From the NCBI RefSeq assembly GCF_044324785.1, contig NZ_CP172127.1: a stretch of 64,000 nucleotides of DNA. One strand, 5' to 3'. The DNA is from Escherichia coli (GTDB lineage Bacteria > Pseudomonadota > Gammaproteobacteria > Enterobacterales > Enterobacteriaceae). A program made the position numbers and the translations under genes. The number at the start of each line of letters is the position of its first letter. Within the stretch, counting starts at the first letter, position 1. The notes below the pieces were generated by a model. The model was not told the origin of the DNA. It saw nothing but the letters and a program-made list of their open reading frames with translations, and did not search any database. Below, piece after piece: positions 44,061 through 47,270 of the stretch.

Positions 44061-44135
44061 AGCGCCCGATGCGCAAGCGTATCGGGCTACTCTTATGGAG
44101 GCCGGATAAGACGCGGCCAGCGTCGCGTCCGGCAA
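44061..44135. repeat. REP/BIME-type extragenic palindromes
   Basis: GCCCGATGCGCAAGCGTATCGGGC and GCCGGATAAGACGCGGCCAGCGTCGCGTCCGGC palindromes between convergent ttcA and dbpA. Confidence 0.65.
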
Positions 44136-44181
44136 TCCCGGAGAAGATGTTTACTCTTGCACCCTGCGATTCAACATTTCA

Positions 44182-45555
44182 TTATTTTAATAACCGCACC
44201 CGGCACGTTTTTCCTTTAATCTTCCCGCCCTGCAACTGTTTCCATGCTTTATGAGCAACAGCCTGACGCACCGCGACATAGACATGCGCCGGATGCACGG
44301 CGATTTTGCCAATATCTGCGCCATCAAGCCCGATATCTCCTGTCAGCGCACCTAATACATCACCCGGGCGCATTTTGGCTTTTTTCCCGCCATCGATACA
44401 TAACGTTGCCATTTCGGCTTCCAGCGGCACAATGGAACTATTAACTGGCGGCGTTTGCCAGTTAAGTTTTATCTGCAACATGTCAGAAATGATATTGGCC
44501 CGCTGTGCTTCTTCCGGGGCACAGAAACTGATCGCCAGACCGCTATTTCCTGCACGCGCTGTGCGACCGATGCGATGTACATGAACTTCAGGATCCCACG
44601 CCAGCTCAAAGTTCACCACCAGCTCAAGCGATTTAATATCCAGACCTCGCGCAGCAACATCAGTCGCAACCAGTACACGGGCGCTACCGTTAGCAAAACG
44701 TACCAGGGTCTGATCGCGATCGCGTTGCTCCAGATCGCCGTGTAACGACAATGCACTTTGCCCTACTTCATTCAGCGCGTCGCAGACAGCCTGGCAATCT
44801 TTTTTGGTATTGCAAAACACCACACAAGAGGATGGCTGATGCAAGCTTAATAACCGTTGCAACAGAGGAATTTTGCCTTTACTGGATGTCTCATAAAATT
44901 GTTGTTCAATGGGTGGCAAAGCATCTGTTGAGTCAATTTCAATCGCCAAAGGATCGCGTTGCACTCGTCCGCTGATTGCGGCGATGGCTTCCGGCCAGGT
45001 TGCCGAAAACAGAAGCGTCTGTCGAGATGCAGGCGCAAAACGGATGACATCATCAATGGCATCGCTAAATCCCATATCCAGCATGCGGTCGGCCTCATCC
45101 ATCACCAAAGTATTCAGCGCATCCAGTGATACCGTGCCTTTTTGCAAGTGATCCAGCAAACGACCCGGCGTTGCCACGATAATATGCGGCGCATGTTGCA
45201 ACGAATCACGCTGCAAACCGAACGGTTGACCACCGCACAACGTCAAAATTTTGGTATTTGGCAGAAAACGCGCCAACCGACGCAATTCACCTGCCACCTG
45301 ATCCGCCAGTTCACGCGTAGGACACAGCACTAAAGCCTGGGTTTGAAATAGCGACGCATCAATTTGCTGTAACAAGCCGAGGCCAAAAGCCGCCGTTTTG
45401 CCGCTGCCGGTTTTCGCCTGCACGCGAACATCTTTTCCGGCAAGGATCGCCGGAAGCGCGGCGGCCTGCACCGGCGTCATGGTTAAATAACCCAACTCAT
45501 TAAGGTTCGTGAGTTGGGCGGGAGGCAAAACATTCAGGGTAGAAAAAGCGGTCAC
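44182..45555 (-). CDS. dbpA: ATP-dependent 23S rRNA-specific DEAD-box helicase
   Basis: 457-aa ORF with Walker A (AKTGSGKTAAF), DEAD box (VMDEAD), SAT and HRIGRTAR motifs; GTG start. Confidence 0.9.
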   Translation of the reverse strand: MTAFSTLNVLPPAQLTNLNELGYLTMTPVQAAALPAILAGKDVRVQAKTGSGKTAAFGLGLLQQIDASLFQTQALVLCPTRELADQVAGELRRLARFLPNTKILTLCGGQPFGLQRDSLQHAPHIIVATPGRLLDHLQKGTVSLDALNTLVMDEADRMLDMGFSDAIDDVIRFAPASRQTLLFSATWPEAIAAISGRVQRDPLAIEIDSTDALPPIEQQFYETSSKGKIPLLQRLLSLHQPSSCVVFCNTKKDCQAVCDALNEVGQSALSLHGDLEQRDRDQTLVRFANGSARVLVATDVAARGLDIKSLELVVNFELAWDPEVHVHRIGRTARAGNSGLAISFCAPEEAQRANIISDMLQIKLNWQTPPVNSSIVPLEAEMATLCIDGGKKAKMRPGDVLGALTGDIGLDGADIGKIAVHPAHVYVAVRQAVAHKAWKQLQGGKIKGKTCRVRLLK

Positions 45556-45584
45556 AATCTATTCTCGTGGTCATCGACGCAAAG

Positions 45585-45758
45585 TTAGCAGGCGCGTATC
45601 CTCGCAGATCTACGCTCACGATGCGACAATTTAATCGGTTCTTCATCGGGTGGTGGGTCAGGCATGGGTTGCGGGCGAGGGATTGGATCGGGCACAGGAA
45701 CAGGATCGCCAGGAATCGGTTCAGGGACAGGAATTTGCAAATAAATAAGTGTCGTCAT
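45585..45758 (-). CDS. hypothetical proline-rich small protein (57 aa)
   Basis: ATG preceded by GGAGGG SD at 5-nt spacing; product MTTLIYLQIPVPEPIPGDPVPVPDPIPRPQPMPDPPPDEEPIKLSHRERRSARIRAC; stop 29 nt before dbpA start; below the track cutoff. Confidence 0.45.
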   Translation of the reverse strand: MTTLIYLQIPVPEPIPGDPVPVPDPIPRPQPMPDPPPDEEPIKLSHRERRSARIRAC

Positions 45759-45815
45759 ATTTCCCTCCGGTCATTGGGTGGACTCTTAAAGGGTAGACGC
45801 TGATAAATAACAGGC

Positions 45816-45937
45816 AAAAAAAAGCCGACTCATCAAAGTCGGCGTCGTACGAATCAATTGTGCTATGCAGTAATTCAAAAAAGGAAGTAAGACAATATGG
45901 AGCGCAACGCCCATCGCTTGACGTTGCATTCACCTGC
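45816..45937 (-). ncRNA. fnrS: FNR-activated small RNA FnrS
   Basis: Minus strand reads GCAGGTGAATGCAACGTCAAGCGATGGGCGTTGCGCTCCATATTGTCTTACTTCC...GAGTCGGCTTTTTTTT, matching FnrS; zntB/dbpA spacer as in K-12. Confidence 0.85.
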
Positions 45938-46032: not shown

Positions 46033-47037
<1,005 letters not shown>

Positions 47038-47270
47038 TTATTTTGTAGTCTAGCCTTCTGGCCCTGTTACGCAACATCTCATCACCCCATTACCCTGAAA
47101 TGATTAATAAAATTCTGTCTAAATTGAATACAAAAAGCAAAATGCTTTTCCATATACAAACCGTGTGAAGTGTTAAATAGCGTCTATCATTATCAGAATT
47201 ATCTGATCATATGACGTGGCTTTTTTGCGATCGGATAGCAACAAAAATTGATAAAAATAATGGGATCTCA

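What the first reader, a model, noticed from the sequence alone, without database searches (positions are those of the whole stretch)
45585..45758. Proline-rich 57-codon ORF with strong SD between fnrS and dbpA
Seen: an ATG preceded by GGAGGG at 5-nt spacing opens a 57-codon frame whose middle is a run of P-x-P repeats (IPVPEPIPGDPVPVPDPIPRPQPMPDPPPDEEP) including a PPP stretch; the stop lies 29 nt before the GTG start of dbpA. Knowledge: consecutive prolines stall ribosomes and need EF-P. Inference: either a real small protein or an EF-P-sensitive upstream ORF coupling dbpA expression to translation capacity. I cannot say from memory whether it is already annotated.
Basis: partly seen in the sequence, partly recalled or inferred. 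Interest (0 to 1): 0.5.

Follow-up and report, generated by a model that had tools for sequence, protein, structure and literature searches.

The report
Known small-protein gene ynaL upstream of dbpA
The proline-rich 57-codon ORF is real but already catalogued as the E. coli small-protein gene ynaL (b4743); its function is unknown, and its invariable position upstream of the ribosome-assembly helicase gene dbpA, plus an unusually invariant DNA stretch at its 3' end, suggest but do not prove a role in controlling dbpA.

Summary
On the minus strand, 45585..45758 is a 57-codon ATG ORF with a strong SD, a P-x-P array ending in PPP, and a stop 29 nt before the dbpA GTG. FnrS lies upstream.

It is not new. 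It is ynaL (K-12 b4743; RefSeq "proline-rich small protein YnaL"; Pfam PF23677). The locus was once called ncRNA C0343, was recognised as coding in 2011, is covered in Ribo-seq, and was detected by chromosomal SPA tagging in 2018. I found no functional study.

Work here shows the order fnrS-ynaL-dbpA in 34 of 34 loci from about 13 Enterobacteriaceae genera. The ORF and its SD are intact everywhere. The C-terminal 40 residues are under purifying selection (dN/dS 0.01-0.2).

The EF-P idea is untested and weakened: PPP is replaced by PSP in E. albertii and a Citrobacter lineage.

One feature may be new. The last 17 codons hold two blocks that are invariant at the nucleotide level, one of them 20 nt, while dbpA's longest invariant run is 5 nt. 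These blocks include fixed rare codons AGA, AGG and AUA. No RNA structure, promoter, rRNA mimicry or FnrS pairing explains them.

The most likely role is a translated leader coupled to the weakly initiating dbpA. Interest is low to moderate.

The parts
45585..45758 (-). ynaL coding sequence (57 codons plus TAA), the ORF of the finding
   Evidence: The product is identical to K-12 YnaL. Pfam PF23677, E = 2.2e-40.
45763..45768 (-). Shine-Dalgarno GGAGGG of ynaL, 4 nt before the ATG
   Evidence: Conserved as GGAGGG or a near variant in all 30 loci. SD:anti-SD duplex -10.0 kcal/mol.
45648..45731 (-). Proline-rich region, codons 10-37: x-P repeats ending in PPP (45648..45656). This is the most C-rich, G-poor mRNA stretch on this strand of the window.
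   Evidence: Amino acids are conserved while third codon positions vary freely (20 of 21 degenerate codons have synonymous variants). An 80-nt window here has C 47% and G 16%, in the top 0.02% of the 64 kb.
45621..45638 (-). Invariant nucleotide block A, CCGATTAAA(T/A)TGTCGCAT (codons P41-H46)
45591..45611 (-). Invariant nucleotide block B, (A)GATCTGCGAGGATACGCGCC (codons R50-A56). It contains the fixed rare codons AGA (45609..45611), AGG (45600..45602) and ATA (45597..45599).
   Evidence: A 19-20 nt run is invariant in 28 genomes, against a maximum of 5 nt anywhere in dbpA. Also invariant in Klebsiella, Raoultella, Kosakonia and Leclercia, with one or two substitutions in two of them.
45556..45584 (-). 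29-nt spacer between the ynaL stop and the dbpA GTG; contains dbpA's weak SD-like CGAGA
   Evidence: The gap is 23-29 nt in 30 loci and 14 nt in Klebsiella and Raoultella. dbpA SD:anti-SD duplex is only -3.0 kcal/mol. No terminator-like site lies between the genes.
44182..45555 (-). dbpA (ATP-dependent RNA helicase DbpA, GTG start), the gene immediately downstream
45820..45937 (-). FnrS sRNA gene with its intrinsic terminator (stem 45824..45843), immediately upstream
45790..45799 (-). Conserved 5'-UTR motif CGTCTACCCT between the FnrS terminator and the ynaL SD. Its function is unknown; it could be a weak -10 (TACCCT) or an anti-SD (CCCU pairing with AGGG).
   Evidence: CTACCCT is invariant in the 18-sequence alignment. 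The promoter scan found no sigma-70 match.

Best explanation
Shown: the ORF is ynaL (b4743). It is a known, translated small-protein gene restricted to Enterobacteriaceae. It always sits between the sRNA gene fnrS and dbpA, on the same strand as dbpA, with no terminator between them.

Inferred mechanism: ynaL and dbpA form one bicistronic unit, and ynaL acts at least partly in cis as a translated leader.
- Ribosomes load efficiently on ynaL (GGAGGG + ATG) and read through the proline array.
- They terminate 14-29 nt before dbpA, whose own initiation signals are poor (GTG start, 3-nt SD match).
- Termination-reinitiation therefore helps to set DbpA synthesis. Ribosome cover over the very C-rich proline-coding RNA also helps, because that RNA would otherwise be a good Rho loading site.
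- The speed of passage through the P-x-P/PPP array and through the fixed rare codons AGA...AGG-AUA near the stop would then tie dbpA output to elongation capacity.

The 40 C-terminal residues are also selected at the peptide level, either as a nascent chain or as a free protein. The last 17 codons carry a further nucleic-acid signal of unknown nature.

Confidence is about 0.97 for the identity and about 0.4-0.5 for the cis-coupling mechanism. The figure below refers to the mechanism.
For: Identity:
- RefSeq annotation 'proline-rich small protein YnaL' lies under the match in 5392 of 5426 E. coli genomes.
- WP_001296046.1; K-12 b4743 at 1409308..1409481; Pfam YnaL PF23677, E = 2.2e-40.
- The identical sequence was SPA-tagged and detected (PMC6001520).
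- Ribo-seq coverage, and earlier recognition as a 57-aa coding region (PMC5331693).

Gene reality:
- The ORF and its SD are intact in 30/30 plus 4/4 loci.
- dN/dS is 0.01-0.2 over the conserved 40 codons, with free synonymous change in the proline part.

Cis link to dbpA:
- The order fnrS-ynaL-dbpA holds in every locus.
- The gap is 14-29 nt and contains no terminator-like site.
- SD:anti-SD energy is -10.0 kcal/mol for ynaL against -3.0 for dbpA, and the dbpA GTG start is conserved.
- The N-terminal 16 residues are variable in sequence and length, while the C-terminal 40 are conserved, as in leader peptides.
- The 3' third of ynaL is invariant at synonymous sites (1 of 13 codons with a synonymous variant against 20 of 21, Fisher p = 3e-7). 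Block B is a 19-20 nt invariant run, against a maximum of 5 nt in dbpA.
- The rare codons AGA, AGG and ATA are fixed in 27-29 of 29 sequences.
- The proline-coding stretch is a C>G outlier.

Precedents: mgtL's alternating Pro codons are EF-P-sensitive (PMC6460261), and polyproline stalling uncouples translation from transcription and allows Rho termination (PMC5021804).
Against: - There is no direct evidence that ynaL translation affects dbpA. No transcript map was available, so co-transcription is inferred only from geometry and the lack of a terminator.
- No promoter was identified for the unit.
- No alternative RNA structures or covariation were found that would make a classical attenuator.
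- Forty conserved residues are more than known arrest or leader peptides need. The tagged protein accumulates to detectable levels, which fits a trans-acting protein equally well.
- The stop codon position is not fixed. Klebsiella and Raoultella have 4-7 extra codons, which argues against a mechanism that depends on the exact register at termination.
- The invariant blocks could instead be a DNA-level element, such as an internal dbpA promoter or operator, unrelated to ynaL translation.
Confidence: 0.45

Rival explanations
1. YnaL works in trans. It would be a free, extended proline-rich peptide with an acidic P-x-P rod and a basic tail (KLSHRERRSARIRAC) that binds a partner, plausibly DbpA or a 50S assembly intermediate. 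Adjacency to dbpA would then reflect shared function, not cis control.
For: - Peptide-level purifying selection acts across 40 residues, with free synonymous change in the proline part.
- The SPA-tagged full-length protein is detectable in LB (PMC6001520).
- AlphaFold predicts a confident but extended segment at residues 21-40 (pLDDT about 90, no secondary structure, pTM 0.23), as expected for a polyproline-II ligand-type motif.
- The authors of PMC6001520 also suggest a function related to dbpA.
Against: - No partner is known and no homologue has a solved structure.
- The only family hits are low-complexity TonB-type proline regions far below cut-off.
- This model does not explain the invariance of synonymous sites and rare codons in the last 17 codons.
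- Overexpressing the old 'C0343' fragment gave no marked phenotype (PMC4606813). That construct may not have encoded the whole protein.
Confidence: 0.35
2. The PPP run makes ynaL an EF-P sensor: when EF-P activity is low, ribosomes stall at DPPPD and dbpA expression changes, either through lost coupling and Rho polarity or through an exposed RBS.
For: - D-PPP-D is in the window and in 110 of 120 homologue clusters.
- From established knowledge (Ude 2013, Doerfel 2013, Peil 2013), PPP, DPP and PPD are strong EF-P-dependent contexts.
- Precedents exist for EF-P-sensitive leader ORFs and for EF-P-dependent protection from Rho (PMC6460261, PMC5021804).
- DbpA, EF-P and ArgRS are all higher in exponential phase (PMC13393375). 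This is correlation only.
Against: - PPP is replaced by PSP in E. albertii and the C. youngae/freundii-type lineage, whose cluster P0060 was seen on 185 contigs. It is PPQ in C. amalonaticus. The rest of the peptide and both nucleotide blocks stay intact in these lineages.
- dbpA is not among the EF-P/Rho candidates listed in PMC5021804.
- No paper links ynaL to EF-P.
- Full-length protein is made in wild type, as expected either way.
Confidence: 0.18
3. The invariant blocks A and B are a DNA- or RNA-level signal for dbpA that is independent of ynaL translation. Candidates are an internal promoter or operator (block A contains TAAAWT, a -10-like hexamer), a 5'-terminal stabilising hairpin, or a CsrA-type site (GCG-AGGAUA-CGC, with GGA in a hairpin loop). 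ynaL would merely overlap this signal.
For: - The blocks are as conserved as the neighbouring sRNA FnrS and far more conserved than dbpA.
- They stay invariant where the ynaL stop has moved.
- Block B can form a small hairpin (-3.6 kcal/mol), and an AUCU-GCGA-GGAU mini-hairpin recurs in the folds.
Against: - No sigma-70 promoter was found by the scan, and no conserved -35 is visible.
- No significant structure or covariation was found.
- No Rfam family matches.
- The CsrA and promoter readings rest on motif resemblance recalled from memory, not on a test.
Confidence: 0.3
4. The ORF is not a gene: either a chance open frame or a non-coding RNA (the old C0343 call).
For: It was historically listed as ncRNA C0343. 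ORFs of this size are common in six-frame listings.
Against: - Frame, SD and length are conserved across about 13 genera, with dN/dS of 0.01-0.2.
- The protein has been detected and the ORF is covered in Ribo-seq.
- C0343 was removed from Rfam and no Rfam hit exists.
- There is no stable structure (z = -0.32).
Confidence: 0.02

Closest known systems
YnaL (E. coli K-12 b4743, YP_009518775.1 / WP_001296046.1; Pfam PF23677 'Protein YnaL-like'; formerly ncRNA candidate C0343)
   Same: It is the same gene. The 57-aa sequence is identical. The position between fnrS and dbpA is the same. There are 3 mismatches in 442 nt against K-12, and the two inside ynaL are synonymous.
   Different: Nothing differs. 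Published work covers only its existence and expression, and no function has been reported.
mgtL and mgtP, the proline-codon leader ORFs of Salmonella mgtA and mgtCBR (PMC6460261, PMC5299641)
   Same: Each is a short ORF directly upstream of the regulated gene and rich in proline codons. mgtL has alternating Pro at positions 3, 5, 7 and 9, and mgtP has consecutive Pro. Ribosome speed at these codons, which depends on EF-P and Pro-tRNA, sets downstream expression.
   Different: - Those ORFs are about 17 codons and act through mutually exclusive RNA stem-loops in a long leader. ynaL has 57 codons.
- ynaL has 40 residues under peptide-level selection.
- No alternative structures or terminator were found for ynaL.
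- No regulatory effect of ynaL has been shown.
EF-P-dependent maintenance of transcription-translation coupling against Rho (Elgamal, Artsimovitch and Ibba 2016, PMC5021804)
   Same: A polyproline motif in an upstream reading frame, together with C-rich, G-poor RNA, is the configuration in which loss of EF-P led to Rho-dependent loss of downstream expression. The ynaL proline stretch is a strong C>G outlier.
   Different: That effect was shown with artificial PPPPPP constructs and weakly for cadA. dbpA/ynaL was not among the candidates. In ynaL the C-rich RNA lies mostly upstream of the PPP, not downstream of it.
Ribosome arrest peptides acting at or near the stop codon (TnaC, SecM, SpeFL; from established knowledge)
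   Same: The N-terminus is variable and the conserved C-terminal segment has roughly the length the exit tunnel holds when the ribosome is at the end of the ORF. The ORF sits directly upstream of the controlled gene.
   Different: No stalling has been shown. The conserved segment is longer than known arrest motifs. The stop position shifts by 4-7 codons in Klebsiella and Raoultella. There is no sequence similarity to any known arrest peptide.
TonB proline-rich spacer and other low-complexity Pro-rich segments
   Same: X-Pro dipeptide repeats predicted to be extended. There are weak profile hits (NCBIfam TonB, E = 2.9e-4 at 20.8 bits; Pfam TonB_N, E = 0.75).
   Different: The hits fall far below the family cut-off (315 bits). 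They are compositional only, with no TonB domains, so this is not homology.

Membership tests
YnaL family (Pfam PF23677) | Significant full-length match to the family HMM | tested here: met
   E = 2.2e-40, 136.8 bits, residues 1-57 against model positions 1-57.
YnaL family (Pfam PF23677) | Orthologous position: between fnrS and dbpA, on the same strand as dbpA | tested here: met
   True of the window, of K-12, and of 30 plus 4 loci from other genomes.
YnaL family (Pfam PF23677) | Translated into protein | not testable with these tools
   Published for the identical K-12 sequence: SPA-tag immunoblot (PMC6001520) and Ribo-seq (PMC5331693). Supported here only indirectly by dN/dS.
EF-P-dependent polyproline stalling substrate | At least two or three consecutive proline codons in a strong context | tested here: met
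   D-P-P-P-D at codons 34-38. It is not universal in the family: 110 of 120 clusters have PPP, 5 have PP only, and 5 have none.
EF-P-dependent polyproline stalling substrate | Ribosome pausing or reduced output in efp mutants | not testable with these tools
   No data were found in the library.
Leader-peptide transcription attenuator (mgtL/mgtP, trpL type) | Short translated ORF in the 5' leader of the regulated gene | tested here: met
   ynaL ends 29 nt before dbpA, and 14-29 nt before it in other genera.
Leader-peptide transcription attenuator (mgtL/mgtP, trpL type) | Terminator and mutually exclusive RNA structures between or overlapping the ORF and the gene | tested here: not met
   - No terminator-like site lies between ynaL and dbpA.
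- The consensus fold is weak and without covariation.
- MFE z = -0.32.
- The spacer-to-block-B stem is no better than shuffles.
Leader-peptide transcription attenuator (mgtL/mgtP, trpL type) | Translation of the ORF changes downstream expression | not testable with these tools
   Needs reporter fusions.
Translationally coupled gene pair | Same strand, short distance, weak downstream initiation signals, no terminator | tested here: met
   - The gap is 14-29 nt.
- dbpA has a conserved GTG start and an SD duplex of -3.0 kcal/mol, against -10.0 for ynaL.
- No terminator lies between the genes.
Functional coupling itself was not tested.
Base-pairing sRNA (old C0343 annotation) | Stable conserved secondary structure, an Rfam model, and no coding signature | tested here: not met
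   There is no Rfam hit apart from FnrS and no significant structure. There is a clear coding signature. The family was removed from Rfam (PMC5331693).
23S rRNA hairpin-92 mimic (DbpA autoregulatory site) | Sequence similarity or complementarity of the conserved mRNA element to 23S rRNA | tested here: not met
   Local alignment scores were 19 and 16, against shuffle means of 19.2 and 18.9.
CsrA binding site | GGA motif in the loop of a short hairpin, usually with a second site at the SD | tested here: inconclusive
   Block B folds as GCG-AGGAUA-CGC at -3.6 kcal/mol. There is no GGA at the dbpA SD. The motif consensus is recalled from memory, and no binding data were available.

The most novel reading that the evidence does not exclude
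ynaL is a cis-acting gauge of translation capacity for ribosome biogenesis. Three features would together set how much of the 50S-assembly helicase DbpA is made, as a function of EF-P, Pro-tRNA and rare-tRNA supply:
- the P-x-P/PPP array;
- three rare codons fixed across genera (AGA, AGG-AUA) just before the stop;
- a 20-nt ultraconserved element embedded in the last 17 codons.

The conserved 40-residue peptide would act as a nascent chain inside the exit tunnel.
Probability: 0.2. Interest if true: 0.6.

Novelty: already known. Interest (0 to 1): 0.27.

Why it matters
As an ORF discovery it does not matter, because ynaL is already in K-12, RefSeq and Pfam.

What remains open is its function. 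The question is sharpened by two results obtained here. First, the peptide is under strong selection across Enterobacteriaceae and is never separated from dbpA. Second, its 3' end carries a nucleic-acid signal that is as conserved as an sRNA and includes fixed rare codons.

If ynaL proves to be a leader that couples DbpA synthesis to elongation capacity, it would be a new example of feedback from translation status to ribosome assembly, and it would give a function to one of the many orphan small proteins. The necessary experiments are simple reporter fusions.

Tried and rejected
- 23S rRNA mimicry or complementarity of the conserved element (DbpA binds hairpin 92): alignment scores were no better than shuffles. 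My remembered H92 sequence was also wrong and was corrected from the real rrlH sequence.
- Pairing with the adjacent sRNA FnrS: the duplex energy was weaker than for most shuffled targets.
- Conserved RNA structure: RNAalifold gave -16 kcal/mol over 349 columns with essentially no covariation. The single-sequence z-score was -0.32.
- Stem between the variable 9-nt spacer and the 3' end of block B: it looked attractive by eye but was not better than spacer shuffles (mean z = -0.36), and it is absent in several Enterobacter lineages.
- Sigma-70 promoter between the fnrS terminator and ynaL, or inside ynaL: the scan found none. Manual inspection found only weak candidates: TTGCCT-16-TACCCT upstream, and TAAAWT in block A without a -35.
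- Dual coding in the +1 frame (the 48-aa ORF at 45500..45646): its ATG is missing in 7 of 36 loci, it has no SD, and its tail is not conserved.
- Antisense ORF (45567..45803, + strand): its codons are in register with ynaL, so ynaL's free third positions would be its first positions. It is therefore not conserved.
- Homology to TonB or other proline-rich proteins: the hits are compositional only, and there is no PDB relative.
- Other copies of blocks A or B in the window: none meaningful.
- Literature search for a function: only existence and expression papers were found. Washietl 2011 could not be opened and is cited through PMC5331693.
- Not done: a test of whether the blocks exist upstream of dbpA in Enterobacterales that lack ynaL.

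Full report
**1. The observation**

On the minus strand of the window, an ATG at 45758 opens a 57-codon frame that ends with TAA at 45587..45585. Its product is MTTLIYLQIPVPEPIPGDPVPVPDPIPRPQPMPDPPPDEEPIKLSHRERRSARIRAC. It has 16 prolines, arranged as x-P repeats from residue 9 to 37 and ending in PPP at codons 35-37 (45656..45648).

- GGAGGG lies at 45768..45763, 4 nt before the ATG (5 nt from the GGAGG core).
- The stop is followed by exactly 29 nt and then the GTG of a 457-aa ORF that is DbpA.
- Upstream, Rfam finds FnrS at 45820..45937 (134.8 bits), with its terminator at 45843..45824.

The only omission is the strand.

**2. What it is**

The region matches 5392 of 5426 complete E. coli genomes at 95-100% identity. 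The feature under the match is annotated "ynaL: proline-rich small protein YnaL" (WP_001296046.1). In K-12 MG1655 it is b4743, at 1409308..1409481, between fnrS and dbpA. The window differs from K-12 at 3 of 442 positions from fnrS to dbpA+60, and both differences inside ynaL are synonymous. The protein matches Pfam PF23677 "Protein YnaL-like" end to end (E = 2.2e-40).

The history of the locus can be reconstructed from the literature.
- It was listed as the ncRNA candidate C0343.
- Washietl et al. 2011 (RNAcode) showed that it encodes a 57-aa protein, and it was removed from Rfam. Neuhaus et al. 2017 report this and add a ribosome-coverage value of 2.49 in EHEC (PMC5331693).
- It was an unidentified positive in a tetracycline Ribo-seq screen.
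- VanOrsdel et al. 2018 detected a chromosomal C-terminal SPA fusion by immunoblot in LB and named it YnaL. They printed the same 57-aa sequence and noted its adjacency to dbpA (PMC6001520).

I found no paper on its function, on EF-P or on dbpA regulation. Overexpressing "C0343" in an sRNA library had no marked phenotype (PMC4606813).

**3. Conservation**

A search of 5.8 billion proteins gave 162 homologues. All carry PF23677, and all those with a source name come from Enterobacteriaceae: Escherichia, Citrobacter, Salmonella, Enterobacter, Leclercia, Lelliottia, Klebsiella, Raoultella, Kosakonia, Pseudocitrobacter, Superficieibacter and Intestinirhabdus.

In an alignment of 32 of them, the first ~16 residues vary in sequence and length, while D18 to C57 is nearly invariant: DPvPxPDPIPRPQPMPDPPPDEEPIKLSHxxxRSARIRAC.

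I fetched 29 loci from one-genome-per-species contigs and four more from Klebsiella, Raoultella, Kosakonia and Leclercia.
- In all of them the order is (zntB-)fnrS-ynaL-dbpA on one strand.
- The ORF is intact and has a GGAGGG-type SD.
- The gap to dbpA is 23-29 nt, or 14 nt in Klebsiella and Raoultella, where the ORF is 4-7 codons longer.

Over the conserved 40 codons, pairwise dN/dS is 0.01-0.2. This is a genuine gene under purifying selection, which agrees with the published protein detection.

**4. The EF-P idea**

D-PPP-D is a strong EF-P-dependent context (established knowledge), and PPP is present in 110 of 120 homologue clusters. It is not universal, however.
- E. albertii and the C. 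youngae group have DPSPD.
- C. amalonaticus has DPPQED.
- Five clusters have no PP at all, including one seen on 185 Citrobacter contigs.

In those lineages the rest of the peptide and the surrounding nucleotides are unchanged. A sensor that depends on the PPP alone therefore cannot be the conserved function.

This objection is softened by mgtL, whose alternating, non-consecutive Pro codons are EF-P-sensitive (PMC6460261). Polyproline stalling without EF-P can also uncouple translation from transcription and let Rho terminate (PMC5021804), although dbpA is not among that paper's candidates. The ynaL proline stretch has 47% C and 16% G over 80 nt, which places it in the top 0.02% of windows in these 64 kb. 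It would be a good Rho loading site if left untranslated.

**5. An unexpected feature**

Selection changes character within the ORF.
- In codons 18-40 the amino acids are fixed but third positions vary freely. Of 21 degenerate codons, 20 have synonymous variants.
- In codons 41-46 and 50-56, only 1 of 13 has a synonymous variant (Fisher p = 3e-7).

This defines two nucleotide blocks. Block A is CCGATTAAA(T/A)TGTCGCAT (45638..45621). Block B is (A)GATCTGCGAGGATACGCGCC (45611..45591). They are separated by 9 variable nucleotides.

Block B is a 19-20 nt run invariant in 28 genomes. In the same genomes the longest invariant run in the whole 1371-nt dbpA is 5 nt, and dbpA's dS between these genomes is 0.8-3. 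Block B also holds the three rarest codons of these organisms, and they are fixed: AGA in 27 of 29 sequences, AGG in 29 of 29, and ATA in 29 of 29.

I could not identify what the blocks are.
- No Rfam family matches.
- No significant or covarying structure was found.
- No sigma-70 promoter was found.
- There is no similarity or complementarity to 23S rRNA.
- There is no pairing with FnrS.
- No conserved overlapping ORF exists in the +1 or antisense frame.
- There are no other copies in the window.

Untested possibilities are a CsrA-type hairpin (GCG-AGGAUA-CGC), a -10-like TAAAWT in block A, and a requirement for slow decoding just before the stop.

**6. Mechanism**

Shown: ynaL is translated and conserved. 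It is always 14-29 nt upstream of dbpA with no terminator between them. ynaL has strong initiation signals (SD duplex -10.0 kcal/mol, ATG) and dbpA has weak ones (-3.0 kcal/mol, GTG), conserved in both cases.

Inferred: the two genes form a bicistronic unit in which ynaL translation supports dbpA expression. This would work through termination-reinitiation coupling and through shielding of the C-rich RNA from Rho. The speed of passage through the proline array and the rare codons would modulate the output.

The peptide-level conservation of 40 residues can be read in two ways: as a nascent-chain effect, or as a trans-acting extended peptide. AlphaFold gives no secondary structure, pTM 0.23, and pLDDT of about 90 for residues 21-40. 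I rate the cis model at about 0.45, a trans-acting role (not exclusive of it) at about 0.35, and the PPP/EF-P-specific version at about 0.18.

**7. Comparison and verdict**

The finding is the known gene ynaL, so the novelty category is "already known". The regulatory hypothesis belongs to a known kind, represented by the proline-codon leader ORFs mgtL and mgtP and by EF-P-dependent coupling. ynaL fails one defining feature of classical attenuators, because no terminator or alternative structures were found.

The nucleotide-level ultraconservation and the fixed rare codons at the 3' end of ynaL are, as far as the searchable literature shows, undescribed. They make the cis-regulatory question directly testable with a handful of reporter constructs. 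Interest is low to moderate (0.27).

Noticed in passing
window 45591..45638 (minus strand): Two blocks inside the 3' third of ynaL are invariant at the nucleotide level, CCGATTAAAWTGTCGCAT and GATCTGCGAGGATACGCGCC. They stay invariant across about 13 genera even at synonymous sites, with the rare codons AGA, AGG and ATA fixed. dbpA's longest invariant run in the same genomes is 5 nt. The cause is unknown.
   Followed up: yes
window 45790..45799 (minus strand): The motif CGTCTACCCT, between the FnrS terminator and the ynaL SD, is invariant (CTACCCT) in 18 aligned genera while its flanks vary. It could be a weak -10 (TACCCT, with TTGCCT 16 nt upstream) or an anti-SD that pairs with AGGG of the ynaL SD.
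   Followed up: partly
window 47030..47077 (minus strand): The 15-codon ORF ynaN ([16 protein letters not shown]-12 b4773) is present as an exact match 13 nt upstream of zntB. This is a second annotated micro-ORF in the same neighbourhood, also placed directly in front of a larger gene.
   Followed up: partly
L009 (E. coli E69), P0053 (Salmonella enterica), P0110/P0106/P0007/P0003 (E. coli): Natural length variants occur in the proline array.
- E. coli E69 has an in-frame 33-nt deletion that removes 11 codons.
- One Salmonella cluster has a 10-residue duplication (PDPRPHPQPM twice).
- Several E. coli clusters are frameshifted at the CCA-CCA-CCC run into the +1 frame, giving products of 82-85 aa.

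The repeat is evidently prone to slippage.
   Followed up: partly
L019 (Silvania), L026 and L029 (Pseudocitrobacter), L036 (Leclercia): In these species the +1 frame of ynaL runs without a stop straight into the dbpA reading frame, giving stop-to-stop ORFs of 507-553 codons. A +1 shift in the proline run would therefore produce a YnaL-DbpA fusion. This is not conserved in other genera and is probably a coincidence of spacer length.
   Followed up: partly
L033 (Klebsiella quasipneumoniae), L034 (Raoultella terrigena): Here ynaL is 4-7 codons longer (…RIRACRSSVL, …RIRACQLRAL). Its stop lies only 14 nt before the dbpA GTG, inside dbpA's SD region. Blocks A and B are nevertheless kept.
   Followed up: yes
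H1, NZ_CP041425.1 (E. coli STEC388): In this strain the match to the fnrS-ynaL-dbpA region is split into two pieces, and an IS1A transposase is annotated under it. This is a natural insertion somewhere in the region that could serve as a ready-made polarity test.
   Followed up: no
window 44100..44138 (both strands): There are weak sub-threshold Rfam hits to naRNA4 (about 22-24 bits against a gathering score of 59.5) in the dbpA-ttcA intergenic region. This is probably a REP-type palindrome.
   Followed up: no
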